Of a stretch of DNA of 64,000 nucleotides, positions 11,081-60,580 are shown one piece after another. The translations under genes and the position numbers were made by a program. Within the stretch, counting starts at the first letter, position 1. Each line of letters begins with the position of its first letter. The stretch comes from a phage. Location: the sequence record PZ583742.1; one strand, given 5' to 3'. The notes beneath the pieces were generated by a model. It was given only the letters and a program-made list of their open reading frames with translations. It did no database searches and had not been told where the DNA came from.

Positions 11081-11109
11081 TTTACAACGGCAATGGATTG
11101 CCGTATGAT
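11081..11109 (+). promoter_or_regulatory. early sigma70 promoter with stem-loop in spacer
   Basis: TTTACA 11081-11086, 17-nt spacer holding CGGCAAT/ATTGCCG hairpin, TATGAT 11104-11109. Confidence 0.55.
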
Positions 11110-16877: not shown

Positions 16878-16906
16878 TGTACAACAAAGGGATAATGCAG
16901 TATATT
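16878..16906 (+). promoter_or_regulatory. early promoter with stem-loop
   Basis: TGTACA, 17-nt spacer, TATATT; hairpin GGGATAAT/ATTATCCC spans the -10. Confidence 0.5.
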
Positions 16907-16934
16907 ATCCCTATCAACTACTGAGGAGATTGAA

Positions 16935-18242: not shown

Positions 18243-18408
18243 GATTTCTGTCTTCCAGATTTTTGAAGAATATGAAATCGTATCGCAAGACCAAGAAGCA
18301 ATCCATGTTATCGCTGATGATGGTGTTACCTGGATTATTCCGTTGTATCATGAAGACACTTATGAAGTGACTGATGCAAATGGTGATAAAGCTATCTTCG
18401 TTGTATAA
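18217..18408 (+). CDS. hypothetical acidic protein (63 aa)
   Basis: ATG with AAGGG upstream. Confidence 0.35.
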   Translation: MSAMCTGSKISVFQIFEEYEIVSQDQEAIHVIADDGVTWIIPLYHEDTYEVTDANGDKAIFVV

Positions 18409-18411
18409 ATA
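18404..18411 (+). promoter_or_regulatory. late promoter motif TATAAATA
   Basis: Exact TATAAATA, 17 nt upstream of ATG 18428. Confidence 0.4.
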
Positions 18412-18427
18412 GCGGAAAGGGGGTGTT

Positions 18428-18595
18428 ATGAAAACATTCAAAGATTTTATCAACGAAAATATGGTTGCCGGTGATGCGGGTGGAAACCCAACTAATATCG
18501 CAACAGGTACCACTTCCGGGGCAGTTGTCAATAAAGGCCCTGAACAAATCCCATCAAAAAAGCGTAAGAACAAAGACGATAAACCTACAGTATAA
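18428..18595 (+). CDS. small Gly/Thr-rich protein (55 aa) with basic tail
   Basis: ATG after AAAGGGGG; below the 60-aa ORF-track cutoff. Confidence 0.35.
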   Translation: MKTFKDFINENMVAGDAGGNPTNIATGTTSGAVVNKGPEQIPSKKRKNKDDKPTV

Positions 18596-21688: not shown

Positions 21689-21696
21689 TATAAATA
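21689..21696 (+). promoter_or_regulatory. late promoter TATAAATA for soc
   Basis: Exact TATAAATA 32 nt upstream of soc ATG. Confidence 0.55.
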
Positions 21697-21727
21697 CGCC
21701 TGTAATTAAACAACAAAGGAGTTAATT

Positions 21728-21961
21728 ATGGGTGGTTTCGTTAATATCAAAACCTTCACGCATCCAGCTGGTGAAGGTAAAGAAGTTAAAGGTGTTGAAG
21801 TATCTGTTCCGTTTGAAATCTATTCGAACGAGCACCGTATTGCTAATGCACACTATCAGACTTTTCCTTCCGAAAAGGCCGCTTATGTCACCGTAGCGTC
21901 TAGTGCAGCTGATTGGCGAACTAAGAACGCGGCGATGTTTACGCCTACCCCAGTAGTTTAA
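21728..21961 (+). CDS. soc: small outer capsid protein Soc
   Basis: 77 aa; VNIKTF...AHYQTFPSEKAAY matches T4 Soc; AGGAG SD. Confidence 0.85.
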   Translation: MGGFVNIKTFTHPAGEGKEVKGVEVSVPFEIYSNEHRIANAHYQTFPSEKAAYVTVASSAADWRTKNAAMFTPTPVV

Positions 21962-29596: not shown

Positions 29597-29640
29597 AGTG
29601 TACAAACTCTTGGGGTCAGAGTATAATGACCCCACTGGAG
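29597..29640 (+). repeat. 44-bp promoter/stem-loop cassette, copy 1
   Basis: Matches 40846-40889 with one mismatch; includes TGTACA, GGGGTCA/TGACCCC hairpin and TATAAT. Confidence 0.85.
29599..29627 (+). promoter_or_regulatory. early promoter with stem-loop across the -10
   Basis: TGTACA 29599-29604, TATAAT 29622-29627, stem 29612-29618/29627-29633. Confidence 0.55.
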
Positions 29641-31329: not shown

Positions 31330-31353
31330 GCTTTAAAATATGTGACTTATAAT
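31329..31353 (+). promoter_or_regulatory. MotA-box middle promoter candidate
   Basis: TGCTTTA 31329-31335, TATAAT 31348-31353. Confidence 0.45.
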
Positions 31354-31359
31354 ACCTCC

Positions 31360-32067
31360 ATGAACTTAAAACAATTTATTGAAGAAAATCTTTTAACTAA
31401 GAACCCGAATCGTCTTAACGGTAATTTGTTCAAAAATGATTTAGAATTTGCCAAGAAATTCTGGGAAAAATATCCAGAAGAAGCAAATGTCTTTAGAACA
31501 GAAGCACTGCATTGTCAAGGAGGTAAAAGAGACCAACATCCGTACAATGAGGTCTGCTACCGTATTTTACATGATATAAAAGGAAAAGTCTTATGTAAGT
31601 GTGGTAAACCTGTTAACTATCATACATTTGCTACTGGCTACCATGAATTTTGTTCCGTTAAATGTCAGGGTGGTGGTATATTTGAAGAAGAGCGTATTTG
31701 TCCTGTTTGCGATACTAAGTATATGGCTACGAATAGGACTCAAAAATATTGTTCAGATTCCTGTGGTAAAGAAGCAAGAGATACTCAATCACTGGACTTG
31801 CCATATAGTCATTCCATAAAGATGAAAAAGCGCGACGTTTTGAAGTTAATTGAGGATACTCCGTATTGTGAAATTTGTAAAATAAAACTAACAAACAATT
31901 CGACTTCTTTATCAAAAAGCACTTGGTTCAATGTAGACCATTGCCACTCGACTGGTAAAGTCCGAGGTATTTTATGTTCAAAATGCAACATAGGCCTAGG
32001 AATGTTTAAAGACAATATTGCTTCATTAGAAACTGCGATAGAATACTTGAAACAAAGCAAGGAATAA
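31360..32067 (+). CDS. endonuclease VII-like His-Me finger nuclease with N-terminal zinc fingers (putative homing endonuclease)
   Basis: C-terminal DHCHSTGKVRGILCSKCNIGLG; several Cys pairs; first ATG (31360) near the predicted transcript start, so start uncertain. Confidence 0.55.
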   Translation: MNLKQFIEENLLTKNPNRLNGNLFKNDLEFAKKFWEKYPEEANVFRTEALHCQGGKRDQHPYNEVCYRILHDIKGKVLCKCGKPVNYHTFATGYHEFCSVKCQGGGIFEEERICPVCDTKYMATNRTQKYCSDSCGKEARDTQSLDLPYSHSIKMKKRDVLKLIEDTPYCEICKIKLTNNSTSLSKSTWFNVDHCHSTGKVRGILCSKCNIGLGMFKDNIASLETAIEYLKQSKE

Positions 32068-32073: not shown

Positions 32074-33906
32074 ATGATTGAAAATAAAATTGAAATGCTT
32101 TCAGATAAAGACCATTGTTTGAAACGTCCGGGAATGTACATCGGAAGTGTTTCATATGAAGAATACGAAAGATTTTTATTTGGTGAGTATACTAAAGTAT
32201 CTTATGTGGCGGGTGTATTAAAACTAGTTGATGAGATTATCGACAACTCGGTTGATGAAGCTATACGTACAAATTTCAAATTTGCCAATAAAATTTCCGT
32301 TGATATCTCTTTGACTGATAACAAAGTTACTGTTGAAGATAATGGTCGTGGTATTCCGCAGGCTGTTGTCATAACTCCAGAAGGTGAAGAATTACCTGGC
32401 CCTGTAGCGGCCTGGACGAAAACCAAAGCGGGTGGGAATTTCGGTGATGATAAAGAACGTGTAACCGGCGGCCAGAATGGTGTTGGTTCAAGTCTTACCA
32501 ATATTTTTTCAATCCTTTTTACTGGGACCACATCTGACGGTAAAAATGAGCTTCGTGTAAGTTGTTCAAATAATGCCGATAATGTATCATGGAAAACCAA
32601 ACCAACCAAATCCAATGGTACCAAGGTTGAGTTTATTCCAGACTTTAGTCATTTTGAAATGAACAGTTTTGATAAAATTTATCTGGATATTACACTTGAC
32701 CGTCTGCAGACTCTTGCTGTTGTTTATCCTGATATTGAATTCAAATTCAATGGTAAAAAGGTACAAGGTCAGTTTAAAAAGTTTGCTAAACAATATGATG
32801 ATGAAATCATTATCCAGGAACAAGATAATTGCTCAATTGCAATCGGTCGGTCACCTGACGGATTCAGACATCTGACATATGTCAACAACATCCACACAAA
32901 AAATGGTGGACACCATATTGAATGCGTTATGGATGAAATGTGTGATGTGTTAATCCCGGCGATTAAACGCAAGTATAAAATTGAAGTAACCAAAGCACGC
33001 GTTAAAGAATGTATTACATTGTTGATGTTTATTCGCAATATGAAGAACATGCGATTTGATTCCCAGACCAAGGAGCGATTGACTTCCACTGCCGGTGAAA
33101 TTAAATCACATATCCAGGTCAATGGCAAAAAGTTAGCTGGTTCGTTGTTAAAATCAGAAGCTATTCTGACGCCTATCATTGAAGCTGCATTGGCTCGTAA
33201 ATTGGCTGCAGAGAAAGCAGCAGAGACTAAAGCAAATAAGAAAGCTTCAAAGGCCAAGGTACAAAAGCATATCAAAGCCAACGAATGGGGTAATGATAAG
33301 CTGGAAACGACTCTATTCCTGACCGAAGGAGATTCTGCAACGGGTCCGTTTATCAAGGTTCGTGACCGTGAATTGCAAGGTGCTTATCCGTTACGTGGTA
33401 AGTTTAAAAACACATGGGGTCTGAAAGCTGTTGAAGTTATGAAGAACGCTGAAGCCTTTGATGTGTGTGCGATTACTGGTTTAACGATTGGACAACCGGC
33501 CGAGAATATGAATTACCGAAACATTGCTATCATGACAGATGCGGATGTGGATGGTGTTGGTAGTATCTATCCATCGTTATTGGCGTTTTTCAGTAACTGG
33601 CCAGAGCTGTTCCATGAAGGACGAATTCGCTTTGTGAAAACTCCTGTTATTATTGCACAGCTCAAAGATAAACAAGAATGGTTCTATTCTCTTCCTGATT
33701 ACGAAGAAGCTAAGGATAAACTTCCGAAGCATACCATTCGATATATCAAGGGGCTTGGTTCTCTGGAAGATTCAGAGTACAAACGCGTATTGCTCGAGCC
33801 AGTATTCGAAGTTGTTCAATTGCCCGACAATTGGAAAGAACTGTTCGAAATGCTATTCGGTAAAGATTCCCAGCAGCGTAAAGACTGGATGAATGCGACG
33901 CTATAA
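32074..33906 (+). CDS. 39: DNA topoisomerase II large subunit (gp39 with the gene-60 part contiguous)
   Basis: GyrB-like ATPase N-terminus, TOPRIM LTEGDSATGP; single 610-aa frame. Confidence 0.9.
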   Translation: MIENKIEMLSDKDHCLKRPGMYIGSVSYEEYERFLFGEYTKVSYVAGVLKLVDEIIDNSVDEAIRTNFKFANKISVDISLTDNKVTVEDNGRGIPQAVVITPEGEELPGPVAAWTKTKAGGNFGDDKERVTGGQNGVGSSLTNIFSILFTGTTSDGKNELRVSCSNNADNVSWKTKPTKSNGTKVEFIPDFSHFEMNSFDKIYLDITLDRLQTLAVVYPDIEFKFNGKKVQGQFKKFAKQYDDEIIIQEQDNCSIAIGRSPDGFRHLTYVNNIHTKNGGHHIECVMDEMCDVLIPAIKRKYKIEVTKARVKECITLLMFIRNMKNMRFDSQTKERLTSTAGEIKSHIQVNGKKLAGSLLKSEAILTPIIEAALARKLAAEKAAETKANKKASKAKVQKHIKANEWGNDKLETTLFLTEGDSATGPFIKVRDRELQGAYPLRGKFKNTWGLKAVEVMKNAEAFDVCAITGLTIGQPAENMNYRNIAIMTDADVDGVGSIYPSLLAFFSNWPELFHEGRIRFVKTPVIIAQLKDKQEWFYSLPDYEEAKDKLPKHTIRYIKGLGSLEDSEYKRVLLEPVFEVVQLPDNWKELFEMLFGKDSQQRKDWMNATL

Positions 33907-33909
33907 ATA
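33902..33909 (+). promoter_or_regulatory. late promoter motif TATAAATA
   Basis: Exact TATAAATA overlapping the gene 39 stop. Confidence 0.35.
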
Positions 33910-33912
33910 GAT

Positions 33913-33932
33913 ACGGGAGAATATTCTCCCGT
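33913..33932 (+). other. 20-bp perfect palindrome
   Basis: ACGGGAGAAT|ATTCTCCCGT, no T run. Confidence 0.6.
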
Positions 33933-33948
33933 CTTATAGGAGAAGTCC

Positions 33949-34101
33949 ATGAAAAAGTGGTGGGTTACGTTGTCAAATGGCGAATACGGTTATCTGTGGG
34001 CCGAGACTAAACCTCTGTTTGCATCCTTTGTCACCATTATGTGCGAGACCTGGGATGGTGAATACTATACCGCATATGGGCAAGTCTATAAAGTTGAGTA
34101 G
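33949..34101 (+). CDS. hypothetical small protein (50 aa)
   Basis: AGGAG SD then ATG; Trp/Tyr-rich. Confidence 0.35.
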   Translation: MKKWWVTLSNGEYGYLWAETKPLFASFVTIMCETWDGEYYTAYGQVYKVE

Positions 34102-34106
34102 CCAAA

Positions 34107-34128
34107 AGGACCTTCGGGTCCTTTTTTA
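34107..34128 (+). terminator. intrinsic terminator (UUCG tetraloop)
   Basis: AGGACC-TTCG-GGTCCT then TTTTTT. Confidence 0.6.
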
Positions 34129-34131
34129 TTA

Positions 34132-34160
34132 TGTACAAGCCACAAAAAGTGTGTTAATAT
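34132..34160 (+). promoter_or_regulatory. early sigma70 promoter
   Basis: TGTACA, 17-nt spacer, TAATAT with TG upstream. Confidence 0.5.
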
Positions 34161-34177
34161 GTCTTTGAGGTGAAAAT

Positions 34178-34462
34178 ATGATTATGTCTGACGGAAGTTT
34201 AGTTAATCTGCAAAATGTCGCACGGTGTATTATGGAAGCAGGCCTGAGGAAGGTGCAGGGGCTCCCAGATAACGACAGGAAGCGAAGTTACTTGTTAGCG
34301 GTAAGAACAACAGCCATGAGCATTAAGGCTGGCCAGAAGGTCCCTGAGGAGCGAATTGAAGCACTCCTTGCATTGATATACCATGGCCAAGAACATAAAG
34401 CTACCATGCGTAGTATGAGAAAAATATTGCAGGAGATTGGAAATGACGAACTTCAAAGTTAA
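34178..34462 (+). CDS. hypothetical protein (94 aa)
   Basis: GAGGTG SD then ATG. Confidence 0.4.
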   Translation: MIMSDGSLVNLQNVARCIMEAGLRKVQGLPDNDRKRSYLLAVRTTAMSIKAGQKVPEERIEALLALIYHGQEHKATMRSMRKILQEIGNDELQS

Positions 34463-34646
34463 TATGGAACTGTTTGATAAGGCTATCCATAAAGAATACC
34501 GTGTTATCCAACGATTTTTTGATATAAGAGAAGCTGAAGAGTTTAAAGAACGCTTCAAAGAAATCCGTATTAAAATAGCTTCAGACACCGCAACAAAGGA
34601 TGAACTTCTTGAAGTTGCAGAATTAATCAAACGTAACATAAAGTGA
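34443..34646 (+). CDS. hypothetical protein (67 aa)
   Basis: AGGAG SD then ATG 34443 (ORF-track TTG start 34437 less likely). Confidence 0.4.
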   Translation: MTNFKVNMELFDKAIHKEYRVIQRFFDIREAEEFKERFKEIRIKIASDTATKDELLEVAELIKRNIK

Positions 34647-34653
34647 GAAAAAC

Positions 34654-36888
34654 ATGATTTTAGAAACTGAAAAAGAAACAATCCTTGGTAATGGTGCCAA
34701 AGCATCAGCATTCACAATCCAGGCATCTCCAAAGGTGTTTAAGATTCTGACCAGCGACCTTTATACAAACAAGGTGCGCGCGGTTGTTCGTGAGCTGATT
34801 ACCAATATGATTGATGCTCATATGCTCAATGGCTGTCAGGATAAATTCATTGTTCAAGCTCCTGGCGAACTGGACCCACGTTTTGTATGTCGTGACTTTG
34901 GTCCAGGTATGAGTGATTTCCAGATTCGTGGTGATGAAAATACCCCAGGTCTGTATAACAGTTTCTTTGCATCATCCAAGGCTGAATCCAACGATTTTAT
35001 TGGTGGCTTTGGTCTGGGTTCTAAATCTCCGTTCAGTTATACAGAGACGTTTAGCCTGATTTCATATCATGATGGTCAAGTTAATGGTTATGTCGCTTAT
35101 ATGGACGGCGATGGTCCACAGATTAAGCCAACCTTTAGCGAACCAATGAAACCTGGCGACCGCACAGGGATTGAAGTTGTTGTCCCGGTTGATAGTAATG
35201 ATTTTGGTAAGTTCCGCCACGAGATTGCATATATCATGCGCCCATTTGCTGGACTGGCTGAAGTACAAGGCGTAGGCGAAATTAATTATTTCCCGGAATT
35301 TGATGATTATTATGCTCCAGAGCGTATTGATTATAGCAGCCCAGAACGTTATGGACTTTATGCAATTTATGGCGGAATTGTTTATCCGATTGATGGCGGG
35401 TATACAAAGAAAACCTGGATGACTGCCAAAAATGATGTTGTCTTTATTAAGTTCCCGATGGGTTCGCTGGATATCGCACCTTCTCGTGAAGCATTATCGC
35501 TGGACAAACGTACGGTCGCAAATATCGTTGAACGTATTGAAACCCTTGATAAGAAAGTCATGGAAGACGATTGTAAGAAATGGCAGGAATCAGAATGTCT
35601 CCGCCATACATATCGCGAATTGCAGAATCTGAATTATGAAGCTCGTAATTTTCTGAAAGCTCGTAATGCTGAAACGAAATTTACGAAATCACAATTGACC
35701 TTTAACCAGATGTACGAAATGTTCGAGCTGGACAAAGACCTTATTAATGCCGGGGTTGTTTATGATATCTATCGTGACACTCGTCTGAAACGTCTGCGCA
35801 ACTCAAGCTCAAACTCGAACACAGCAAGTCTGACGAGCATGTTTGGTATTCAGAATGATACCTTGAACATTGTTATTGATGATGTTAAAGGGCGAATTGC
35901 GATGATTCGCGGTATCAGTTCAATGTTGTATGATACCAGTGCAAAAGCCAAAAAGCTTATTGCATCTGGTAAAGTCCCGACTCGTCAGGGTAGTAGTTTA
36001 CTGTTTGTTGACCCGACCAGCGAAATTCAAACACGGTTGATGGTTCAACTCCAGGAACGATTTAAAGGCGATACAGTTAATATCTATCGTACGTCTGAAC
36101 TGACTGCCCTTGTAAAAGACTGGATTCCGGTTGCGGACCCGAAAGAGCGTGTTAAGTCAAAGACTCCATCGGTGATTCGTTGGACTAAAACTAATGGCAA
36201 ATGGCAGTCTGTTGAAGAATTTACATGTGCAGCTGATGCAGAGGAAATCGATGGTTATGCTGTATTCATTAACCGCAGTAGCATTTCCCCGTTGAATCAG
36301 GAATATGGCACCACGACCTTCGGGACCCAGACATTGTGTAAACTGGCAAACCTGTTGGAAATCAATGAATTCTGTGTTATTCGTCCACAGCTTCAGAAAA
36401 AGGTTACCAAGCTGGCGCAGTGTGATTGTCTGATTGAAGCTGCGGTCAATCGTTATGTAGAATTGATTGATGCGGTTGATGTGGACCAGTACATTGCCGC
36501 TTCAAGCCGTTCGCGTTATTATATTCCTATCCTGTCTGAATATGCAGAACTGAATTTTATGTTCAAGTATTTTTATGCAAAAGATGTTCAGAAAGATGTG
36601 AATACTGACTATGCCGAACTAATGCAGTTCAATAAGTTCTTTGCTTATAACGCATATAACAGTGGAACGGTTGATAAAACCATGCAGGAAACACTGGTCC
36701 TTTGTAATAAGATTTATTACGACCTGACCAAAAACGCTTCAGTAACAAGCGATAAAATGGTTTTTGAATTTGAAAAGAATCACCCGATTGTTTCACACTT
36801 TTTATATAACCGTAACGCTATGTCAACTGAACAAGTACAGAACGTTGCTCAAATCATGAAGGCCGTGGAAGCGGCCAATAAGGAATAA
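34654..36888 (+). CDS. rIIA: rIIA protein (GHKL-type ATPase fold)
   Basis: N-terminus MILETEKETILGNG and N-box VRELITNMIDA match T4 rIIA; 744 aa. Confidence 0.9.
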   Translation: MILETEKETILGNGAKASAFTIQASPKVFKILTSDLYTNKVRAVVRELITNMIDAHMLNGCQDKFIVQAPGELDPRFVCRDFGPGMSDFQIRGDENTPGLYNSFFASSKAESNDFIGGFGLGSKSPFSYTETFSLISYHDGQVNGYVAYMDGDGPQIKPTFSEPMKPGDRTGIEVVVPVDSNDFGKFRHEIAYIMRPFAGLAEVQGVGEINYFPEFDDYYAPERIDYSSPERYGLYAIYGGIVYPIDGGYTKKTWMTAKNDVVFIKFPMGSLDIAPSREALSLDKRTVANIVERIETLDKKVMEDDCKKWQESECLRHTYRELQNLNYEARNFLKARNAETKFTKSQLTFNQMYEMFELDKDLINAGVVYDIYRDTRLKRLRNSSSNSNTASLTSMFGIQNDTLNIVIDDVKGRIAMIRGISSMLYDTSAKAKKLIASGKVPTRQGSSLLFVDPTSEIQTRLMVQLQERFKGDTVNIYRTSELTALVKDWIPVADPKERVKSKTPSVIRWTKTNGKWQSVEEFTCAADAEEIDGYAVFINRSSISPLNQEYGTTTFGTQTLCKLANLLEINEFCVIRPQLQKKVTKLAQCDCLIEAAVNRYVELIDAVDVDQYIAASSRSRYYIPILSEYAELNFMFKYFYAKDVQKDVNTDYAELMQFNKFFAYNAYNSGTVDKTMQETLVLCNKIYYDLTKNASVTSDKMVFEFEKNHPIVSHFLYNRNAMSTEQVQNVAQIMKAVEAANKE

Positions 36889-40847: not shown

Positions 40848-40889
40848 TGTACAAACTCATGGGGTCAGAGTATAATGACCCCACTGGAG
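40846..40889 (+). repeat. 44-bp promoter/stem-loop cassette, copy 2
   Basis: See 29597-29640. Confidence 0.85.
40848..40876 (+). promoter_or_regulatory. early promoter with stem-loop across the -10
   Basis: TGTACA, TATAAT 40871-40876, GGGGTCA/TGACCCC stem. Confidence 0.55.
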
Positions 40890-45604: not shown

Positions 45605-45880
45605 ATGACTAAATTTGAAATCGTTTCTGAAATTGTTACTATAACTTCAATTTTGATTAAAACCGACCGGGAAGATATTACGATGAAGCGTGATGTGTTT
45701 ATCGCGTTTTTGAATGAGTTGGGATTGAGAAATGAGAATGGGAATGAGTTAAACAATGTATCGTTTAACAAGTTGTTTAAAAGTTTATCTGAAGATGAAA
45801 TTGAACAAATCATTGAACAATTTAACGAAGGATTCGAAGATATACACCGTTATCTTATGATGTATACCTCCGGATTCTAA
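45605..45880 (+). CDS. asiA: anti-sigma70 factor AsiA
   Basis: SEIVTITSILIKTDREDI...FIAFLNELG...FNEGFEDIHRYLMMYT matches T4 AsiA. Confidence 0.85.
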   Translation: MTKFEIVSEIVTITSILIKTDREDITMKRDVFIAFLNELGLRNENGNELNNVSFNKLFKSLSEDEIEQIIEQFNEGFEDIHRYLMMYTSGF

Positions 45881-46530
45881 CGTGTACGCCCAAGCGTACG
45901 ACCTGCTTGTCCACACATAGCAGAAAGCCTATCAAAACCAAGGTTAGGTTTTTGCTTATACCAGTACAGTGAGACTGTACCTGCATAAACGTTTTCCAAA
46001 TTAAAGAATGGGCAGCTGAACATATATGAGAAGCTGCTTTTTTTCTTTGTTGGTAAGAATACAGATTCCGTACTGGATTCAAAATAATTACCATTAACCC
46101 CCGCCAAATATTCCGCCGAAGTTTTATCTATTGGAAACCCACCTAAATTTTTTTCGTCGACTGTATCAGGCAATATCCCCTCGTATCCCACCATATCCAC
46201 AAAGTAGTTAAGGTTAGTTGGTCTAAAAGAATATATTGCTGTAAAGTCTGCCCCACTTGACGAGTGGACTATCTGGATTTGCTCGATAGCTGCAATTTTA
46301 AATCTGTTGTCCTGGTCTTGCCTTATCATTTCTGTGTATGAGGCATATGAAGCATCCCTGTACGCATCTAAAAGTGCATCACCTTTATACCAGATTACCG
46401 CCATTAAAAATAATAGAACAATAACTAGTACCCGGGAAAAAACAACTTTCCCGGTCGCATTATCTTTAAAAATTCTATCAAGAAGTCCAAAAAGTAGGTC
46501 GGGTATTGATATTCCTACTTTTGGTTCCAT
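45877..46530 (-). CDS. t: holin T
   Basis: LLDRIFKDNATGKV and FSCPFFNLENVYAGT match T4 holin; 217 aa. Confidence 0.9.
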   Translation of the reverse strand: MEPKVGISIPDLLFGLLDRIFKDNATGKVVFSRVLVIVLLFLMAVIWYKGDALLDAYRDASYASYTEMIRQDQDNRFKIAAIEQIQIVHSSSGADFTAIYSFRPTNLNYFVDMVGYEGILPDTVDEKNLGGFPIDKTSAEYLAGVNGNYFESSTESVFLPTKKKSSFSYMFSCPFFNLENVYAGTVSLYWYKQKPNLGFDRLSAMCGQAGRTLGRTR

Positions 46531-46548
46531 ACTTTTCTCCTTTAAAGA

Positions 46549-46556
46549 TATTTATA
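46549..46556 (-). promoter_or_regulatory. late promoter TATAAATA for t
   Basis: Plus strand reads TATTTATA; about 20 nt upstream of GGAG SD. Confidence 0.5.
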
Positions 46557-46567
46557 GCGCTTATGTA

Positions 46568-47350
46568 CTATAGCCAGGAGCCGTAGATAGTGCCTGTAGC
46601 GCCCCATGAAGGAGAACTTCCGAATACAGCTCGTCCAGCTCCGCCTTGTGAGCCGTATGTAACGCGTCGTCCGTAAGCGCCGCCACCAGCCCCACCCGCG
46701 TCGCCGCCATTACCACCACCCCACTGTCCACCAAAGCTACCACCGCCACCTGGTCCGGTATAACTAGCGTTGCCGCCTGGGTTTACGGCGCCATTAGTAC
46801 CACCTAATCCATATGGTCTACCGCCACCGCCACCAGCTGTACCCGCCACAAGCCAAGAGTTATTTGAAGCACATCCGGCACCGCCGCCGCCCCCTGAAGC
46901 TATAACGCCATAGTTCCAGATACGGAGTCTGCCACCAATGTCGTTTTGAATTACATCACCACCATTTGTACCCGCTACCCAAACACGGGTCCCACCGTTA
47001 CCACCACGGCCCCACATATGGACCCCGCCGTGAATATTCAAAGTAACGTATTCATTAGGGGTATCGCCATACATAAAGAACAACGGAACATCTTTAGTAT
47101 AAGATACTAAATCACCTGTGATATTAAACACAATAGGGGCAGCACCGGCTTCAAAACAACGGTCTCTAAACCATTGCCCGTTAAAGTTATGGTCGGCTCC
47201 AAGTGTGTGAATTATTTCAACAGACCGACCTACCATATTACTCATCCAAAACGGAATACCCATTCTCAATCGTTGGGCAGCGCCGCCCATCCAAGGGTCC
47301 CCAGTTTGTACCCTCGCAGACCACCCTACCCACGGTCCTACTACTGCCAT
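46568..47350 (-). CDS. 38: gp38 receptor-binding adhesin (T2-type, glycine-rich motifs)
   Basis: C-terminal half has poly-Gly blocks separated by short variable segments; GGAGG SD before ATG at 47350. Confidence 0.8.
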
Positions 47351-47361
47351 ATAAACCTCCA

Positions 47362-47377
47362 AGGGGCCGAAGCCCCT
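47362..47377 (-). other. UUCG-tetraloop hairpin between genes 37 and 38
   Basis: Minus-strand RNA AGGGGC-UUCG-GCCCCU just upstream of gene 38 SD. Confidence 0.5.
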
Positions 47378-47381
47378 CTTA

Positions 47382-50300
47382 TTATTTTAACAATGATTTA
47401 ATTAATGCTTTAAGTTCTTCAATCTCTGACTTAAGTTCTGCAATTTCTGCAGTATGCTCATTGATTGCAGCTGTATTTAAACCAATTACACCGTTATAGT
47501 TTAAACGAAGTAAAGCTTCACCATCAGGGTCGCCTTCAACCAATTCAGGTAAAATAGATTGAACTTCTTGAGCAATTAAACCAGCGTTAGGTTCCCATTT
47601 CTGATTACCTTCTTCATCCAGGCCACGTTTCTGCATATAAGTGTAACCGTTAATTTTAGAAAGCTTCTGAGAAGCATTTTCAAATTTAACAAGGTCTTTT
47701 TTAACACGAATATCAGAACGGACATAAACATCTCGAACATATGTAGAATAGCTGTCGTTTGCCTGAACAAGATGACCATAAGACATAATAGCTCTTCCTT
47801 GCTCAGTCCACAAAGCACCATTGGTATCCCAAAGACCTTCATGGATATGATAAGCGCTAGACCAAGATGCAATATGCATACCATTGGCAACCATATTGAT
47901 TCGGCCGTCACCACCATGAACTAATCCTGTATCATTATCACCAATAACAAGACACGGGCCGGTCCATACAGGGTCACCACCACCAGCTGATAATCTTGCT
48001 CCAGTTTTAACCATGTTAGGAACATACAGAACTCCATTGTGGTGGAATTCATAGATAGCTTGTGGGTCAGAACCGTTTTCCTGGTTACCTACACGAATAA
48101 TACCTTGCGCCCAGTTATTAGTGATACGACGCATACCGAAATCTACACCTGATATGAATCCTTCGTTAGTAATACCAGATTTTCCTTTGATAATCGGATA
48201 ATAACTATCATTACCAACATTACCAAAATCAACAAATACCGGTGCTTCTTGCTTCCATTGGTTTCCCCAATCGCCGGCCTGGTGGGATGCCCAGACAGAG
48301 CCATTAATAAAAAGACGGTCCCTATTAAAATTAAAAGTGGCTGAACCTTGTGGGTTTAAAGCAATATCGCCGTCTGCATTAATATTTACGCCTGAATTAG
48401 TTTGAAAACTATAAATTGATACAGCATTATCGGCACCGCCGTTACCTACATACCAGTTATCAATACCAGCTTTTTGTCCTTTCATATAACCAGATTCGGT
48501 TGCAGCACTGTTAATAACAATAGCATCCGAGTTTGCATTAAGAGTTAAACGCCCGGTCATTGTGTCACCACTTTTACCGACACGAGTATTCACTGCTGCA
48601 TCAAGGTTAGTAGCACCGCTATACTTTTTCCAAATAGAACCTGCAATATTACCATCGGTATTCATATAAGCTGTACCGGCATATAAGCGGTTCTGAGCCA
48701 TGAAGTTACCTTCTTTGGTAAAGCGCCAATATTTTAATCCTGTAGCATCACCATCACCAAGCAAATCGCCTTGAGCAACAATTCGGTATTCGCTTGTAGC
48801 GCGGTCCATACCTTGAGTAATAGTTACATTAGAAACTGTATTTTTCTGCTTGGTAATTGGATAGAATGCTTGGGTTGCTGCACCAAGTGTTTGATACAAC
48901 GGAGCTTTAGTCGTATTCTGGTTGGCATAAGATGCACCATTACCAGCAGGGAATTCTAATACGCTGTTAGCAATAAAAGAAACTTGGTCAGCCGCTAAAT
49001 TAGGGATTTTAACTTGACCAGTGTCTAACGTAATACTTAATGGGCGTAATGGGCCTAATCCGCCACTTTCGCCGGCATTAACATTGGTCGGGATAATATG
49101 CAGCTGGTCTTCCGAATTTCGAAAAATAACACCGTACTTATCGTTCCAAATACGAAGACCACTAGCAGCGCGAACTTTAATTTCATTGGAAACATACAGA
49201 TTGCGTTTTAAGGATGTATCTTGATTGACAGTCAATCCTTCAATTACATTCATGGTACCATTTAAATAGGATTCGACTTTACCTGCTGTAGTTCGTTGAA
49301 TATAATGCATCCAGCCGGTAGCATCAGATGTTTCCATTACGTTTTTACGAGAACCATCTACCGTATTAAAAGTGTCACCCCAAACTTTGAGCTCTATATT
49401 ATCAACTGAACTACTTCCTGTTGTATTTCCTTTAAAAAGCACTGTCGAAGCATTACTGAGACCATCAATATTAACCGAACCACCACGGACTTCAACGTTA
49501 CCAGGAGTAACCAACAACCCACCATCGGTGTTAACGTTTGTTACACCTTTGCCACGAAAATAATGGTGATATTTGCCACTTTGGTGATATCCTAAAAGAG
49601 TTTGACCGTCACCGAAGCCGTTTTTATCATTAGTAGTATTAACAATAACTAATGGATAGTTTTGGGTTGTAGGGAGAATTAAATCAGAACCGTTGGTTGA
49701 ATAACCCGCAACTAACTGTTTAAGGCTTGTAACTTCAGTCGGAGTTGTAAGTAAAGTATAAGCTCCATTATTAACTATATGGAACTGGCCGTCTTGTCTC
49801 CATTTCAAACCTGTGTTATTGTCGCCAAGTGCGATAGCAGACGGACCTAATGTTGAGTATCCTGAGCTATCCCCAGGTAGGCCAACGGAAAGAGAATTTG
49901 ATGTTTTGACATCTCCATCTGCATTAAATGACCAAAGATACTTAGCTGTTCCGGCTGTAGAAATAGAATGCCATGAAATACCATTTACATTATTAAGTTC
50001 ACGATACCTAATTCCATCGACAGCGTGTCTACTTATTCTAAGATAGTTAATAGCTGTTGCACTTGAACTTGCAGGATTATTATTTGCCAATGAAGATATA
50101 TCATAATCAAGAGCTGATTTATTACCGGTATCAACGGTATTAGTATAAATTACCGGAGATTTTATTGATGTTCCACCGGAAATAGATGGAGCATAAAATA
50201 AACCGTCGCCGTTGAATGCAAAAATATTAGATGTTGAATTAGTATAATCCTGGACACGAACGTTCAAGATTTGCTTGGTATCCCCAGTACGGTTTTGAGA

Positions 50301-50711
50301 ATAAATTATACCTCTTTCGCGAGCATCAGCCAAATCCTGGAATCGAACATGAGTGGTTCCTGTACCTCGTACAAGAACTTCACCGTTATCTGTCATTAAA
50401 CGGGCTTTTGCAGTAATATCACCATTTGCTGTTATATTACCAGTAGTAGTAAAATGTCCAGACGTTTGTGAAATATCTCCGGCTATAGTATAGGCGCCGG
50501 TTTGATTGTAATTTCCTTTATGAATAACGTTACCGTCAATATTACCACCTTTAGCAAAGCCAAGGTCGATGATGGCGCCGGTGTCATCTTTAGTAAAAAG
50601 TAAGCGGTCTTTCAGGTTGATAGCCAGTTCACCTTCAGCAAGAACTGTTGGCGCCGGACGAACGCCGGCAACCTTACTTCTTTTAAATTGTATTTGTTTT
50701 AAAGTAGCCAT
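47382..50711 (-). CDS. 37: long tail fibre distal subunit gp37 with C-terminal autoproteolytic chaperone domain
   Basis: N-terminus [13 protein letters not shown] as T4 gp37; C-terminal SDIRVKKDL...[15 protein letters not shown] plus coiled coil. Confidence 0.9.
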
Positions 50712-50719
50712 AATGCCTC

Positions 50720-51367
50720 TTAATAATATCCAAAATCTTGTACGGAGTCTTTAAGAACGATTTGGTCAAAACGGGGCACGTGAGCCGGGTCTGATGCTGG
50801 GTTCCTAGAGAAGAAATTAGGTGCTGACAAGTTACCTGTCATTGTTTGCAATGTACTATTATTTAGTTCCACCTGTTGCTGGTTAGTTACATTACCAAGA
50901 CCAACTTGAGCTTTTGACGGAGTATTCCCTGGAGAAAATACACGCCCTGTTTCATCATAAATCTGTCGAGCTAACGTATCACCCATAACAATAAGACGTT
51001 TTACTCCCGTCGTAGTGTCAGGGTCAAAAATAACGAATGGTGTTCCCGTTTCAGTCTCAAATCCAAACGGCCCTTTAATACGGAAAGATGCAGTAAATGG
51101 TGCACCACCTGTTCTCGCTCCCAACTTAATCCCGTAACCATTTGAATCGTTAAATGTCAGGCCTTGTTCGAAATATACGTTTGCTTTATAATTACCACCA
51201 AGAGCTTTAGAAACGAAATCGTTATCGACTGCTTGTGGCTTGTTATATTCGGAATAAATTTTATAAGTTTTGAAATATAAGTCATTACTGACTGGTGTTA
51301 ATGGGAAATTACCCTGGTGCCAGAGGACCGAACCTCCGGCTGTTGAGCCTAGTTTTAAATCTGCCAT
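50720..51367 (-). CDS. 36: long tail fibre distal connector gp36
   Basis: 215 aa; position between 35 and 37. Confidence 0.85.
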   Translation of the reverse strand: MADLKLGSTAGGSVLWHQGNFPLTPVSNDLYFKTYKIYSEYNKPQAVDNDFVSKALGGNYKANVYFEQGLTFNDSNGYGIKLGARTGGAPFTASFRIKGPFGFETETGTPFVIFDPDTTTGVKRLIVMGDTLARQIYDETGRVFSPGNTPSKAQVGLGNVTNQQQVELNNSTLQTMTGNLSAPNFFSRNPASDPAHVPRFDQIVLKDSVQDFGYY

Positions 51368-51402
51368 TTATAAGTCCTCTTCAACCGGCATATGATATTT
51401 TG

Positions 51403-51410
51403 TATTTATA
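51403..51410 (-). promoter_or_regulatory. late promoter TATAAATA for gene 36
   Basis: Plus strand reads TATTTATA, about 36 nt upstream of the gene 36 start. Confidence 0.5.
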
Positions 51411-51418
51411 ACGAAAAA

Positions 51419-51436
51419 AGGACTCCGAAGAGTCCT
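51419..51436 (-). terminator. intrinsic terminator after gene 35
   Basis: AGGACTC-loop-GAGTCCT with T run downstream on the minus strand; overlaps gene 35 stop. Confidence 0.5.
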
Positions 51437-52565
51437 ATTGTTTTTCTCGTAGTTCGGCTGCGTATATCTTGCCGGCTCTCGGAGCTTGTGCATCTGGTAA
51501 TGTTACAATTGTATTGCCTGTATTTGTTGCATCGTTTGCATATGACATCCTTATGCCGTTGACACCAAATTCAGCTGGTTTGAATGCCGAGTCACCTCTG
51601 GTTATCTCACCAATAACAATATTACGTATTGACCCAGTTCCCACAGCTACAGTCCTTGATGTTACTACTGTAAAGCCATCGGCTCCCGCTGGAATCTCAA
51701 CATATCTTTCGAAACTTACCCATGCACCAGCTGGAACGTTTGCTGCAATATCGATGTTTGTATTTGATATCGGAGAAGTGCTAGGACTTTTAAAGAATCG
51801 AACCGAAGTCCTTACAGTCCCGGCGGCTTTCAGTTCAGCGTCAAATGACATCTGAAACTTCAGGTAAAGCACATCCAAAGGTAAAAGGTTATATGTGCTC
51901 ATAGGAGTCACCAGGTCCTCTGTGGGGAACCTTCTAATTGAGGTTGATGTTCCATCACCTGTTGATGAATACGTGCTCTCGTCTTCCGTTATGCGCACAG
52001 GATAGCCTGTTGCTCCTATATCACTAAAGGTATCATAAACGACTTCAAGCGGAGTCGAAACATCCTCAACTAACTTCCCGTCATTATACTTAACATGCTC
52101 CGAAACAATTACGTTCCGGCCGGTTATGTAAAAAGCCGAGTACGATGTATCAACTTTATCAATCAGCCATTTCTCGGGGAATGCTCTTGAGCCACATTTA
52201 CGAAGCCAGTCAATTAATGTTTGCGAGGCATTTAGTTTCCCAGAAGAAATAAAAGCAATCAATCTTCCAGCTGGAACAGATTCCACAAAGGTGATTAATG
52301 CCTGACTGATTACATCATGTGTGCTGGTCAATGAATAGTTTTTCGTGTTAACAATTTTATTCGTAGTTGTATCAATTTCTAATAGAGTCAAACCATTGCC
52401 AAAAGTAGTTGGTCCGATTTGTTCATCCTGAAATTTGATATACGATTTCACCGTGGAAAGAGTACAGCTCCCTGCTATACTCATTTTAAATTTAACGGCA
52501 TTATTTTCTGATATAACTGGCGTTTGGACGTATCCTTGTCCAAACTCTGCCATAAATTTTTCCAT
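51435..52565 (-). CDS. 35: long tail fibre proximal connector (hinge) gp35
   Basis: 376 aa; position between 34 and 36. Confidence 0.85.
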   Translation of the reverse strand: MEKFMAEFGQGYVQTPVISENNAVKFKMSIAGSCTLSTVKSYIKFQDEQIGPTTFGNGLTLLEIDTTTNKIVNTKNYSLTSTHDVISQALITFVESVPAGRLIAFISSGKLNASQTLIDWLRKCGSRAFPEKWLIDKVDTSYSAFYITGRNVIVSEHVKYNDGKLVEDVSTPLEVVYDTFSDIGATGYPVRITEDESTYSSTGDGTSTSIRRFPTEDLVTPMSTYNLLPLDVLYLKFQMSFDAELKAAGTVRTSVRFFKSPSTSPISNTNIDIAANVPAGAWVSFERYVEIPAGADGFTVVTSRTVAVGTGSIRNIVIGEITRGDSAFKPAEFGVNGIRMSYANDATNTGNTIVTLPDAQAPRAGKIYAAELREKQ

Positions 52566-52573
52566 ATTACCTC

Positions 52574-55500: not shown

Positions 55501-56530
55501 CAGTCGGTAAATCGATATTAATCGTTGCCGGAGTTGAGTTATCTTCGCCAAATACAATGACGCTTTCGTTTGGTAAAAGTTTAACGCTGTCACGAATAAC
55601 GCGCAGACGAGTTTTAAAATCACCGTCCCAAACATGCCAGAGTTTTTCGGCAGCATCATAAACGAAGAAACCATCACCTGTGGTACGGAATTCCATTTGA
55701 TGCTGACCAGCTTTATCAAGACTGGAACTAGTGTCAAAGGTTTCAACCATCAGGTGGAACGTTGGTCCCATACCATCGATATCAACAGATTTGACAATAT
55801 CACCCTGGTTTGCATACTTAGGAAGAATGAAAGTAATCGGTGCACCAGTTGTATAACGACGCATAATAAAGTCGCCAGCTTGTGCATGGAAACGTCCGGT
55901 CGACGGTTCTACTCTGATACCACGTTCTTCGTTACCTGCTTCCCAAAATTGCCATAAGCGGTTTGAAAAGATAAGCATGTTATAAGAGAATGGTTTGGTA
56001 ATTAAAACTTCTGAATACTGATTACCAAAGCGAACAATCTTTTGGTTACCTTGACCAGGCACATTGCTCGATTGAACTTTAATTTCATTATAACCGGTAT
56101 TACCGCCGATATCTTTAATAACGATGGTATCACCATCAGTCGGGTTCGGAGGCAATGTAAATGTGGTAAAGCTTGCAGCTGAGTCGACTGCGATAAATTC
56201 CCCGGAGCTAAGCTGACGAGTTGGAGATGCAACAGTTTCCCATTTAGGGTCAGTACGAGTTGCTAACCAATACTGAGGGGTAAATGCTCCAGCTGGTGCC
56301 GGAATATCACGTTGAGCAACCCAAATACGGTTATCATTAATAACCGCAAAGTTCTTTTTGTATCCGCGCGTCGCATCATATTGTTGAATTGTGTTTTCTT
56401 CTATAAAGAAACCTACGTTAACGCCGTCTGATAAAACTGAGTAATCAGCTTTTGCGACATTAATGACTTTCTCACCAGCAGCATCGAGACCGGATGTTGC
56501 TCTGAATGCTGGTTTTAAAATATCGGCCAT
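52574..56530 (-). CDS. 34: long tail fibre proximal subunit gp34
   Basis: 1318 aa; start of the late fibre block. Confidence 0.9.
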   Translation of the reverse strand: MADILKPAFRATSGLDAAGEKVINVAKADYSVLSDGVNVGFFIEENTIQQYDATRGYKKNFAVINDNRIWVAQRDIPAPAGAFTPQYWLATRTDPKWETVASPTRQLSSGEFIAVDSAASFTTFTLPPNPTDGDTIVIKDIGGNTGYNEIKVQSSNVPGQGNQKIVRFGNQYSEVLITKPFSYNMLIFSNRLWQFWEAGNEERGIRVEPSTGRFHAQAGDFIMRRYTTGAPITFILPKYANQGDIVKSVDIDGMGPTFHLMVETFDTSSSLDKAGQHQMEFRTTGDGFFVYDAAEKLWHVWDGDFKTRLRVIRDSVKLLPNESVIVFGEDNSTPATINIDLPTDVLQGDIVKIALNYLRKSQTVNIRAAVGDKIASDIKLLQFPKRSEYPPDTTWVLVDSLTFNGNISYTPVIELSYAEDTVSGTSYWVVAQNVPTVERVDSLNDSTRARLGVIALANQTQANVDHENNPEKELAITPQTLANRVAKENQRGIARIATTAQVNQNSDFAFVDDVIISPKKLNERTATETRRGLAELATQQETDAGVDDTTIITPKKLQARQGSESLSGIVTYVSTTGATPAASRELNGTNVYNKNTVNLVVSPKALDQYKATYTQQGAVILAVESEVIAGTSQSGWANAVVTPEMLHRKTALDSRIGLIEIATQVETDAGTDYTRAVTPKTLNDRKASETLTGIAEIATQSEFDTGTDDTRISTPLKIKNRFNNTARTSVNALSGLVETGTLWDHYSLNILEANETQRGTARLATQGEVNTGTDDKTIVTPLKLMSKKATENAEGIVRIATNAEATAGTSKVLAISPSALKYIAQTETTWEASETLRGFVRLSSGTATSAATTTTGAGFTYANGVYTPDPSKLVSYAKSGYAVSPYELNRVLQNFLPINAMAVNAEKLDNLDSTQFIRRDIAQTVEGVLTLTKQTNISAPVVSTSTAVFTDVTAGTSTFGTVNVVNGTNKWKITAPSTGTTMTIGDTTNVLTLNTASGNAAVLNNLSAGNDVQAKNNYVLNGRTIATTTGEASGATLALGDNSQNLVLKTLDAGNIIANGGGAFKVLTEKNAVEIVDRNFVNQGGDTMSGVLHVNAPVRVFGTKPSLIAQAPTADTVGFWSVDINDEPTYSQFPGYWTMKLKRQVNIDTVQTKPAGVTDEVWNASGWLTENGTFASPVIRYRNDDGTLGDEVLGSSGQKLRGTWFDYSVRDKEVKYPGTLTQFGNTLDSCYQDWVCYPTGLNGGTIRYTRTWQKNKSAWTTFAMVYTADNPPSAEDVGALPADNTTMGNLTILDWLRIGNVRIIPDPTTKSVKFEWVE

Positions 56531-60551: not shown

Positions 60552-60580
60552 GTTCCCTCAACAAAAATGAGGAAATTAAA

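What the first reader, a model, noticed from the sequence alone, without database searches (positions are those of the whole stretch)
33902..34101. Late-promoter motif, 20-bp perfect palindrome and small ORF at the gene 39 stop
TATAAATA overlaps the gene 39 stop, followed 4 nt later by the perfect palindrome ACGGGAGAAT|ATTCTCCCGT, then AGGAG and a 50-aa Trp/Tyr-rich ORF. A zero-loop palindrome of this length is more typical of a protein operator than a terminator.
Basis: seen in the sequence. Interest (0 to 1): 0.35.

Follow-up and report, generated by a model that had tools for sequence, protein, structure and literature searches.

The report
Late promoter nested in RNA hairpin
The 20-bp palindrome after the phage topoisomerase gene is not a protein-binding site but an RNA hairpin. 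It overlaps a T4-type late-promoter motif and heads a small gene cassette conserved across T4-like phages, a variant of a control design already known from T4.

Summary
TATAAATA (33902-09) overlaps the gene 39 stop. A unique perfect 20-bp palindrome (33913-32) follows after 3 nt, then AGGAG (33938-42), a 50-aa ORF (33949-34101) and a UUCG intrinsic terminator (34104-25).

The window is a Gaprivervirus (VR7/SP18-like T4-type phage). In 12 Tevenvirinae genera the same junction keeps one layout: gene 39 stop, (A/T)ATAAATA, an 8-12 bp stem-loop 0-4 nt later, SD, small ORF, terminator. The stem sequence differs in every lineage:
- All 8 pairs covary.
- There are 13 G·U pairs and 0 A·C pairs on the + strand.
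- Loops are non-palindromic outside this genus.

So it is a sense-strand RNA hairpin, not a DNA operator. The core 16-mer occurs once per complete genome.

The ATAAATA core is invariant even where it is detached from the stop codon, and it is depleted elsewhere in the window. The predicted late start (G33915) always falls inside the 5' arm and is always a purine.

This resembles T4's soc/e/49/I-TevI "late promoter inside a hairpin", and soc in this window shows that design. Here, however, the stem stops short of the SD, and I found no consistent effect on predicted RBS accessibility. No transcript data exist. I score it a new variant of a known kind, of modest interest.

The parts
32074..33906 (+). 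Gene 39 (fused 39+60 topoisomerase II large subunit), with stop TAA at 33904-06. It is the upstream early/middle cistron whose read-through RNA carries the full hairpin.
   Evidence: ORF. Annotated as DNA topoisomerase II large subunit in relatives that are 90-97% identical.
33902..33909 (+). TATAAATA, a T4-type (gp55) late-promoter motif at -13..-6. It overlaps the last sense codon and the stop of gene 39.
   Evidence: Invariant in 11 Gapriverviruses. (A/T)ATAAATA is invariant at the orthologous site in 12 genera plus Thanatos-2. The core is depleted in the window. Consensus rules come from PMC1524935 and PMC2988020. Activity is inferred, not shown.
33915..33915 (+). Predicted late transcription start (G), the 6th nt after the motif. 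It is the first base of the G/C-rich upper stem.
   Evidence: The rule that TATAAATA occupies -13..-6 (PMC1524935). In 15 lineage representatives this position is always a purine (G 12, A 3) and always lies inside the 5' arm. Inferred only.
33913..33932 (+). RNA stem-loop: 5' arm 33913-20, loop AUAU 33921-24, 3' arm 33925-32. As DNA it is the perfect 20-bp palindrome.
   Evidence: -12.5 kcal/mol, z -5.15. Covariation across genera. Strand assignment rests on G·U 13 against A·C 0.
33938..33942 (+). Shine-Dalgarno AGGAG of the small ORF, outside the stem.
   Evidence: An AGGAG/AAGGA motif sits at the same place in all lineages.
33949..34101 (+). Small ORF of 50 aa (VR7ORF004c family, phrog_4369), predicted to form a 4-stranded beta sheet. 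Function unknown.
   Evidence: E 8e-29; 271 and 326 phage records; alignment; pLDDT 85.5. No Pfam match and no PDB fold match. The phiR1-RT homologue Gp008 was detected by LC-MS/MS.
34104..34131 (+). Intrinsic terminator: 9-bp stem, UUCG loop and T-run. It closes the cassette.
   Evidence: The stem is different but compensated between Gaprivervirus clades. An equivalent terminator follows the ORF in all 17 lineages examined.

Best explanation
The region is the 5' control end of a self-contained small-gene cassette placed between topoisomerase gene 39 and the rIIA-proximal genes. The cassette consists of a late promoter, a stem-loop, an SD, a 50-aa ORF and an intrinsic terminator.

The palindrome acts as an RNA stem-loop in the sense transcript, not as a DNA site. 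TATAAATA is most likely a gp55/gp33/gp45-dependent late promoter whose start (G33915) lies inside the 5' arm. Two RNA isoforms are therefore expected:
- Early/middle read-through RNA from gene 39, carrying the full 8-bp stem (8-12 bp in other genera) just upstream of the SD.
- A roughly 215-nt late monocistronic RNA that begins, with no 5' overhang, with the G/C-rich upper 6 bp of the stem and ends at the terminator.

I infer that the stem-loop sets the stability and/or translation of the small ORF's message differently in the two isoforms. In the late RNA it would act as a 5'-terminal protective hairpin. In read-through RNA it would act as an intercistronic structure or barrier.

The design is that of T4 soc/e/49/I-TevI, where a late promoter is encoded in the 5' strand of a hairpin. 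The difference is that here the helix does not cover the SD or the AUG.

Shown: the sequence elements, their conservation, the covariation and the strand. Inferred: promoter activity, the start site and the functional consequence.
For: (1) The architecture is conserved in 24 distinct sequences from 12 genera, and the motif-to-loop distance is only 8-12 nt.

(2) The stem sequence is unrelated between genera but stays paired.
- 95% of 120 cells are paired, against 50 +/- 4% in shuffles.
- With the tool count, 91.7% are paired against 65.1%, 8 of 8 pairs change on both sides, and 0 of 500 shuffles reach that.
- RNAalifold gives a covariation term of -2.2.
- There are within-genus compensatory changes: JS98 against L023 (C-G to U-A) and Q7622 against L029 (U-A to G-C).

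(3) The strand is the + strand. There are 13 G·U and 0 A·C pairs, and the + strand MFE is better than the reverse complement in 20 of 26 sequences.

(4) The motif looks selected.
- ATAAATA is invariant and independent of the stop-codon frame. In TG1 the stop is TGA, 6 nt upstream; JD18 has a separate copy.
- A at -13 is the commonest T4 variant (PMC2988020).
- ATAAATA occurs 9 times against 20.7 +/- 5.1 expected, and AATAAATA 0 times against 7.4 +/- 2.7, so surviving copies are probably functional.

(5) The predicted +1 is a purine in 15 of 15 lineages and always lies inside the 5' arm, leaving 3-7 bp with no overhang.

(6) The part of the stem upstream of +1 is also kept paired: 87% against 43 +/- 5%. 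So read-through RNAs are under selection too.

(7) There is a precedent in the same window. The soc gene (Pfam Soc) has TATAAATA at 21689-96 abutting a 13-bp hairpin. The mechanism is reviewed in PMC3014915.

(8) A terminator follows the ORF in all 17 lineages. T2 lacks the ORF, the motif, the hairpin and the terminator together.

(9) The phiR1-RT homologue was detected as a protein in a particle preparation.
Against: - No transcript 5'-end data exist for any phage carrying this cassette. The literature searches found none.
- TATAAATA by itself is not enriched in the window.
- Predicted RBS accessibility does not differ consistently between long and late isoforms (mean unpaired 0.47 against 0.54, with mixed signs). 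An e/soc-type on/off translational switch is therefore not supported. The soc control barely responded either (0.33 against 0.38), so this test is insensitive.
- The start-site rule is taken from T4.
- The paired lower stem has no role in a late RNA, so part of the structure serves something else that I cannot identify.
- The Shewanella phage Thanatos-2 keeps the motif but has only a weak 5-bp stem.
Confidence: 0.6

Rival explanations
1. The hairpin is only an intercistronic RNA element of the early gene 39 transcript, such as a barrier to 3' exonucleases, a processing landmark or a folding insulator. TATAAATA is not an active promoter and is conserved for another reason, for example as an A/U-rich S1-binding or nuclease site.
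For: - The lower stem, which lies upstream of the predicted late start, is conserved as paired.
- Stem-loops without U-tracts are frequent at gene boundaries in this window and overlap early-type promoters too.
- Hairpins are enriched about 3-fold.
Against: - An exact 7-mer is invariant across 12 genera in four different relations to the stop codon. That is more than an A/U-rich tract needs.
- It equals the late-promoter core, which is otherwise depleted.
- The phase to a purine at +1 and to the start of the G/C-rich upper stem is constant.
- The early transcript already ends in a strong terminator 170 nt downstream, so a 3' barrier here is not obviously needed.
Confidence: 0.2
2. The stem-loop is an RNA operator bound by a protein that regulates translation of the small ORF. 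Candidates would be a RegA- or gp43-type translational repressor, or the ORF's own product.
For: - The hairpin abuts the SD in several genera, at 0-1 nt in Q7622, CGG4-1 and TG1.
- T4 gp43 uses a hairpin plus RBS-overlapping sequence as its operator (PMC3014915).
Against: - Loop and stem sequences are not conserved between genera, whereas known T4 operators keep their loop bases (PMC3014915).
- No Rfam family matches.
Confidence: 0.08
3. It is an intrinsic terminator for minus-strand (antisense or late-direction) transcription. The reverse complement of the motif (UAUUUAU) would supply the U-rich tail.
For: - The scan flags the stem plus ATCTATTTAT on the minus strand.
- In many genera the stem is directly followed on the minus strand by UAUUUAUU.
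Against: - All 13 wobble pairs are G·U on the + strand and would be C·A mismatches on the minus strand. No case goes the other way.
- The minus-strand fold is weaker in 20 of 26 sequences.
- A U-tract does not require an invariant 7-mer.
- The nearest minus-strand genes are about 12 kb away, at 45877-56530.
- In the window the tail is offset by AUC and is poor.
Confidence: 0.07
4. This is the first reader's idea: the perfect zero-loop palindrome is a DNA operator for a dimeric phage or host protein that controls the adjacent promoter.
For: - There is a perfect 20-bp dyad, expected 0.075 times per window.
- It sits at -2..+18 of the putative promoter.
- The 16-bp core is invariant within the genus.
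- T4 DsbA binds A/T-rich sites overlapping late promoters (PMC2988020).
Against: - The half-site sequence is not conserved in any other genus, while the pairing is.
- Dyad symmetry is broken by G·T positions in most Gapriverviruses and by asymmetric loops elsewhere.
- The core is single-copy in three complete genomes.
- No repressor system that binds palindromes is known in T4-type phages (own knowledge).
Confidence: 0.03

Closest known systems
T4 e, soc, 49 and I-TevI leaders: a late promoter nested in an inhibitory RNA hairpin (reviewed in PMC3014915, section 29)
   Same: - A T4-type late promoter lies in the DNA that encodes the 5' strand of a stem-loop, just upstream of a gene that sits in an early transcription unit.
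- Read-through RNA and late RNA therefore differ in 5' structure.
- The soc copy in this same window has the same zero-gap motif-to-stem phase.
   Different: - In the known cases the SD and/or the AUG are inside the helix, and the late RNA cannot form it.
- Here the stem ends 16 nt before the AUG (10-19 nt in relatives) and the SD is outside it.
- The late RNA keeps a 3-7 bp upper stem.
- Predicted RBS accessibility does not change consistently.
T4 late promoters (gp55/gp33/gp45-dependent TATAAATA; PMC2988020, PMC1524935)
   Same: - Exact consensus in the window, and A(-13) variants in most other genera.
- A purine at the predicted start.
- The -5..-1 segment is 63% A/T.
   Different: - The promoter is located in an early region at the 3' end of a topoisomerase gene.
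- Activity has not been measured.
5'-terminal stabilising stem-loops of E. coli mRNAs, ompA-type, which protect against 5'-end-dependent RNase E (own knowledge; 5'-end dependence is cited in PMC3014915 refs 18-19)
   Same: The predicted late RNA starts at the base of a G/C-rich hairpin with no overhang in all lineages.
   Different: - The stems are short (3-7 bp).
- No half-life data exist.
- This does not explain the conserved lower stem.
Rho-independent terminators and CUUCGG hairpins of T4 intercistronic regions
   Same: A stable G/C-containing stem with a tetraloop immediately after a stop codon.
   Different: - There is no U-tract on the sense strand.
- The true terminator of the unit is the UUCG hairpin at 34104-25.

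Membership tests
T4-type late promoter | An 8-bp TATAAATA box (A tolerated at -13) about one helical turn upstream of the start | tested here: met
   TATAAATA at 33902-09. (A/T)ATAAATA at the orthologous site in all 26 distinct sequences. Variant rule from PMC2988020 and PMC1524935.
T4-type late promoter | A/T preponderance in the segment just downstream of the box, and initiation about 6 nt after it | tested here: inconclusive
   The -5..-1 segment is 63% A/T across 15 lineages, and the nucleotide at the predicted +1 is G in 12 and A in 3. The window itself has GATAC.
T4-type late promoter | A primary RNA 5' end in vivo that depends on gp55, gp33, gp45 and replication | not testable with these tools
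   No transcript-mapping data were found for any phage with this cassette.
e/soc/49/I-TevI-type inhibitory hairpin with nested late promoter | The late promoter lies in or next to the DNA encoding the 5' strand of the helix | tested here: met
   The stem starts 3 nt after the motif in the window (from -3 to +5 nt in relatives). The predicted +1 is inside the 5' arm in 24 of 24 distinct sequences.
e/soc/49/I-TevI-type inhibitory hairpin with nested late promoter | The SD and/or the AUG are sequestered in the helix of the long transcript | tested here: not met
   The stem ends at 33932, the SD is at 33938-42 and the AUG at 33949. The gap from stem to AUG is 10-19 nt in all lineages. TIR unpaired probability is 0.47 in long against 0.54 in late RNAs, with mixed signs.
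e/soc/49/I-TevI-type inhibitory hairpin with nested late promoter | The late transcript lacks the 5' strand and cannot form the structure | tested here: not met
   Only the lower 0-8 bp are lost. A 3-7 bp G/C-rich upper stem remains (6 bp in the window; the 33915-33960 fold is -13.6 kcal/mol).
Intrinsic (Rho-independent) terminator | A G/C-rich stem-loop followed immediately by a U-tract on the transcribed strand | tested here: not met
   On the + strand the tail is CUUAUAGG, which is not flagged. On the minus strand the tail AUCUAUUUAU is flagged, but the G·U asymmetry argues against that strand.
DNA operator (dyad-symmetric protein binding site) | Half-site sequence conserved among relatives, usually with more than one copy per genome | tested here: not met
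   The sequence differs in every genus. The flanks are asymmetric in most Gapriverviruses. There is a single copy in the window and in three complete genomes.
Curated RNA families (Rfam 15) | A match to a covariance model | tested here: not met
   There is no hit on 33902-33948. Only sub-threshold hits fall on the terminator.

The most novel reading that the evidence does not exclude
The motif-plus-stem unit could be a distinct, conserved class of promoter-coupled leader. Late initiation at a fixed phase would trim a hairpin from 8-12 bp to a 3-7 bp 5'-terminal cap. Stability or ribosome loading of the message would then be switched between early read-through RNA and late RNA without occluding the RBS.

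The unit would control a small beta-sheet protein that is retained in over 300 T4-like phage records and may be particle-associated.

In Gapriverviruses there is an extra twist. The 5' arm GGGAGAA mimics the SD, so loss of that arm would let UUCUCC (33924-29) pair with the SD (fold of 33922-60, -8.4 kcal/mol).
Probability: 0.3. Interest if true: 0.45.

Novelty: new variant of a known kind. Interest (0 to 1): 0.3.

Why it matters
- It gives a clean, testable example of how T4-type phages place a late gene at the tail of an early operon.
- It extends the known "late promoter inside a hairpin" design to a case where the RBS is not occluded.
- It points to a widely conserved, uncharacterised 50-aa protein with its own late promoter and terminator.
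- For annotation, it shows that perfect palindromes next to TATAAATA in these genomes should be read as RNA leader structures, not as operators.
- Similar stem-loops overlapping early promoters in the same window hint at a general rule: read-through and promoter-initiated RNAs are made structurally different at cistron boundaries.

Tried and rejected
- MAFFT alignments of the whole leader (A3), of equal-length motif-to-stem segments (A4) and of 12 hairpins (A5) put the arms out of register. Only a 9-sequence, 20-nt hairpin-centred set aligned without gaps (A6), and I used that for the tool counts. Those segments were picked by folding, so "paired" is partly by construction. The informative part is that the sequences differ.
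- I did not attempt a covariance-model route, for the same reason.
- An RBS-accessibility comparison of long against late isoforms showed no consistent effect. The soc control barely responded either, so the test is insensitive.
- Rfam gave nothing at the hairpin.
- Pfam gave no family for the ORF.
The single-sequence model (pLDDT 85.5) has no significant PDB neighbour (best E 0.66).
- The search for related loci in IMG/VR added little diversity, with 16 loci that were mostly known isolates.
- Literature searches for mapped late 5' ends in Gaprivervirus or other ORF-bearing phages found none. One query failed on syntax.
- I considered RegB. The SD has GGAG, but its 3' context fits the GGAGRAYARAA consensus poorly, and several genera have GGAA instead.
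- I considered an RNase E site in AAUAAAUA and rejected it. There is no UU-containing motif, and that rests on my own knowledge of the consensus.
Full report
**Identity of the window and check of the observation.**
The window is a Gaprivervirus, a VR7/SP18-like T4-type phage. Positions 33400-34700 are 90-97% identical to 34 such genomes. The local gene order is topoisomerase gene 39 (39+60 fused, ending at 33906), a 50-aa ORF, DUF7367, rIIA.1 and rIIA.

- TATAAATA at 33902-09, overlapping the stop TAA at 33904-06.
- The perfect palindrome ACGGGAGAATATTCTCCCGT at 33913-32, after a 3-nt spacer.
- AGGAG at 33938-42.
- ATG at 33949, opening a 50-aa ORF rich in Trp and Tyr that ends at 34101.

The 20-mer is unique in the window even with 3 mismatches. 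A perfect 20-bp palindrome is expected 0.075 times per window. As RNA it is an 8-bp stem with loop AUAU, -12.5 kcal/mol, z = -5.15. Two cautions apply. Stems of 8 bp or more are common here (28 against 9.2 +/- 3.3 expected), and TATAAATA alone is not enriched (7 against 4.9).

**Within the genus.**
In 11 Gapriverviruses the 16-nt core GGGAGAATATTCTCCC and the TATAAATA are invariant. The two outer pairs vary as GU..GU, GU..GC or AC..GU. These variants pair in + strand RNA through wobble but are mismatches in a DNA dyad. The fully perfect 20-bp palindrome is a peculiarity of this window. The core 16-mer occurs once in each of three complete Gaprivervirus genomes in IMG/VR (VR26, VR20, VR25). The other 49 hits lie in contigs other than those three genomes, and I did not examine them.

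**Beyond the genus: the decisive evidence.**
The small ORF (phrog_4369) is found by tblastn in 271 and 326 phage records and aligns well across genera. I fetched the junction from representatives of 12 Tevenvirinae genera:
- Gaprivervirus, Dhakavirus, Kanagawavirus and Mosugukvirus.
- Jiaodavirus, Winklervirus, Kagamiyamavirus and Tegunavirus.
- Moonvirus, Karamvirus, Gelderlandvirus and Roskildevirus.

I also fetched an unclassified Shewanella phage. Every Tevenvirinae lineage has the same layout:
- The gene 39 stop.
- (A/T)ATAAATA.
- A stem-loop of 8-12 bp that begins from 3 nt before the motif's end to 5 nt after it (0-4 nt after in most lineages), with a 3-6 nt loop.
- A short A-rich linker, the SD, then the ATG.

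A strong intrinsic terminator follows the ORF in all 17 lineages examined.

The stem sequences are unrelated between genera, yet pairing is kept.
- In 15 lineage representatives, 95% of the 120 innermost cells are standard pairs, against 50 +/- 4% after shuffling partners (max 64% in 5000 shuffles).
- On a gap-free 9-sequence alignment, the tool count gives 91.7% paired against 65.1 +/- 3.7%. All 8 pairs change on both sides (0 of 500 shuffles reach this), and slid controls give 41-56%.
- RNAalifold recovers the same helix.
- Within-genus compensatory changes are visible: JS98 against L023 (C-G to U-A) and Q7622 against L029 (U-A to G-C).

Loops outside Gaprivervirus are not self-complementary. 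So the conserved object is a hairpin, not a palindrome.

**Strand.**
There are 13 G·U pairs on the + strand and no A·C cell, which would be a G·U pair on the minus strand. The + strand fold is more stable than the reverse complement in 20 of 26 distinct sequences. The structure is therefore selected in the sense RNA. This argues against the minus-strand terminator that the simple scan suggests.

**The motif.**
- ATAAATA is invariant in all 26 distinct sequences, although its relation to the stop codon changes. The stop is the first TAA of TAATAAATA in some lineages. It is the internal TAA after GAA or CTA in others. It is a TGA 6 nt upstream in TG1. JD18 has a separate, duplicated copy.
- T or A at -13 matches published late-promoter consensus. 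In T4, 32 of 50 sites are perfect and 9 have A at -13 (PMC2988020). A or T at -13 is common in T4-like phages, and the box spans -13..-6 (PMC1524935).
- In the window the core is depleted: ATAAATA 9 against 20.65 +/- 5.09 expected, and AATAAATA 0 against 7.35 +/- 2.70. Copies that persist are probably used.
- Three of the seven TATAAATA sit upstream of the minus-strand late genes at 45.9-56.5 kb, and one is the soc promoter.

**Phase between motif and stem.**
The loop starts 8-12 nt after the motif in all lineages. The predicted +1 (6th nt after the box) is always inside the 5' arm and always a purine (G 12, A 3 of 15). It coincides with the start of the G/C-rich upper stem, leaving 3-7 bp and no 5' overhang.

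The portion of the stem upstream of +1 is nevertheless also conserved as paired: 87% against 43 +/- 5%. Only transcripts starting further upstream contain that portion. Read-through RNA from gene 39 must therefore also be under selection for the full hairpin.

**Comparison with what is known.**
T4 genes e, soc, 49 and I-TevI have a late promoter in the DNA encoding the 5' strand of a hairpin that sequesters the SD or AUG in early read-through RNA. Late RNA lacks that strand and is translated (PMC3014915). The soc gene in this window shows this design: TATAAATA at 21689-96 abuts a 13-bp stem whose 3' arm covers the AUG.

The element studied here shares the promoter-in-5'-arm design but fails the defining feature. 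The stem ends 16 nt before the AUG (10-19 nt in relatives) and leaves the SD free. Computed TIR accessibility is 0.47 in long RNAs against 0.54 in late RNAs, with mixed signs across lineages. That computation hardly responds for soc either, so it is a weak test.

T2 lacks the small ORF, and it also lacks the motif, the hairpin and the terminator. It has an early-type promoter directly after gene 39. So the four elements travel as one cassette.

**The ORF.**
There is no Pfam family. The single-sequence AlphaFold model is a 4-stranded beta sheet with pLDDT 85.5, and it has no significant PDB neighbour. The phiR1-RT homologue Gp008 is 100% identical to the TG1 protein. It was detected by LC-MS/MS in a purified-particle preparation with 18% coverage from one peptide (PMC6893735 supplement). 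This is weak evidence that the protein is made and present late.

**Verdict.**
The palindrome is a sense-strand RNA stem-loop, which I hold with high confidence. The TATAAATA is probably a functional late promoter, which I hold with moderate confidence and only in silico. Together with the SD, the ORF and the terminator they form a conserved late-expressed cassette at the end of an early operon.

The functional consequence of the hairpin is inferred, not shown. I consider 5' protection of the late RNA, and an intercistronic role in read-through RNA, the most likely. The operator interpretation is not supported.

This is a new variant of a known T4 design, of modest interest.

Noticed in passing
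window 29611-29634 and 40860-40883; also 16888-16912, 60536-60557, 11087-11104: Early-type promoters also sit inside hairpins. An identical 24-nt hairpin TGGGGTCAGAGTATAATGACCCCA occurs twice. Each copy is preceded by GTGTACAA (-35-like) and has a perfect TATAAT in the loop and 3' arm. Similar arrangements occur at three other gene boundaries, and at the T2 39/rIIA.1 junction (L045 896-925). Read-through RNA would carry a stem-loop that promoter-initiated RNA lacks.
   Followed up: partly
window 21689-21734: The soc gene (21728-21961, Pfam Soc) has TATAAATA directly abutting a 13-bp hairpin. The SD is in the loop and the AUG is in the 3' arm. This is the classical T4 soc arrangement, conserved in this genus.
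   Followed up: partly
whole window: The late-promoter core is under-represented. ATAAATA occurs 9 times against 20.65 +/- 5.09 expected, and AATAAATA 0 times against 7.35 +/- 2.70. This suggests purging of spurious late promoters.
   Followed up: partly
window 33913-33944: This is specific to Gaprivervirus. The 5' arm GGGAGAA mimics the SD AGGAGAA. Without the 5' arm, the 3' arm UUCUCC (33924-29) pairs with GGAGAA (33939-44) and would sequester the SD (fold of 33922-33960, -8.4 kcal/mol). The complementarity is not conserved in other genera.
   Followed up: partly
window 34104-34131, and alignment A1 columns 233-262: The terminator after the small ORF has two allelic stems within the genus, GGACC-UUCG-GGUCC and GGUCUCC-UUCG-GGAGACC. 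These co-vary with two alleles of the ORF that are 74% identical at the protein level. The window combines an AC-type hairpin flank, as in CJ20, with the RZ-type ORF allele, which suggests recombination inside the cassette.
   Followed up: no
window 34132-34160: A possible early-type promoter for the next genes sits just after the terminator: TGTACA, a 17-nt spacer, then TGT-TAATAT. It is conserved in the genus but falls below the scan threshold.
   Followed up: no
window 31342-32067: A 241-aa HNH/endonuclease VII-like, homing-endonuclease-type ORF ends exactly where gene 39 begins (phrog endonuclease VII families, E 1e-21). A UUCG terminator-like hairpin lies at 31311-26, upstream of it.
   Followed up: no
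window 18404-18595: Another TATAAATA (18404-11) lies 16 nt upstream of a 55-aa ORF (18428-18595) just before primase gene 61. It has no strong downstream hairpin and the ORF has no Pfam match.
   Followed up: no
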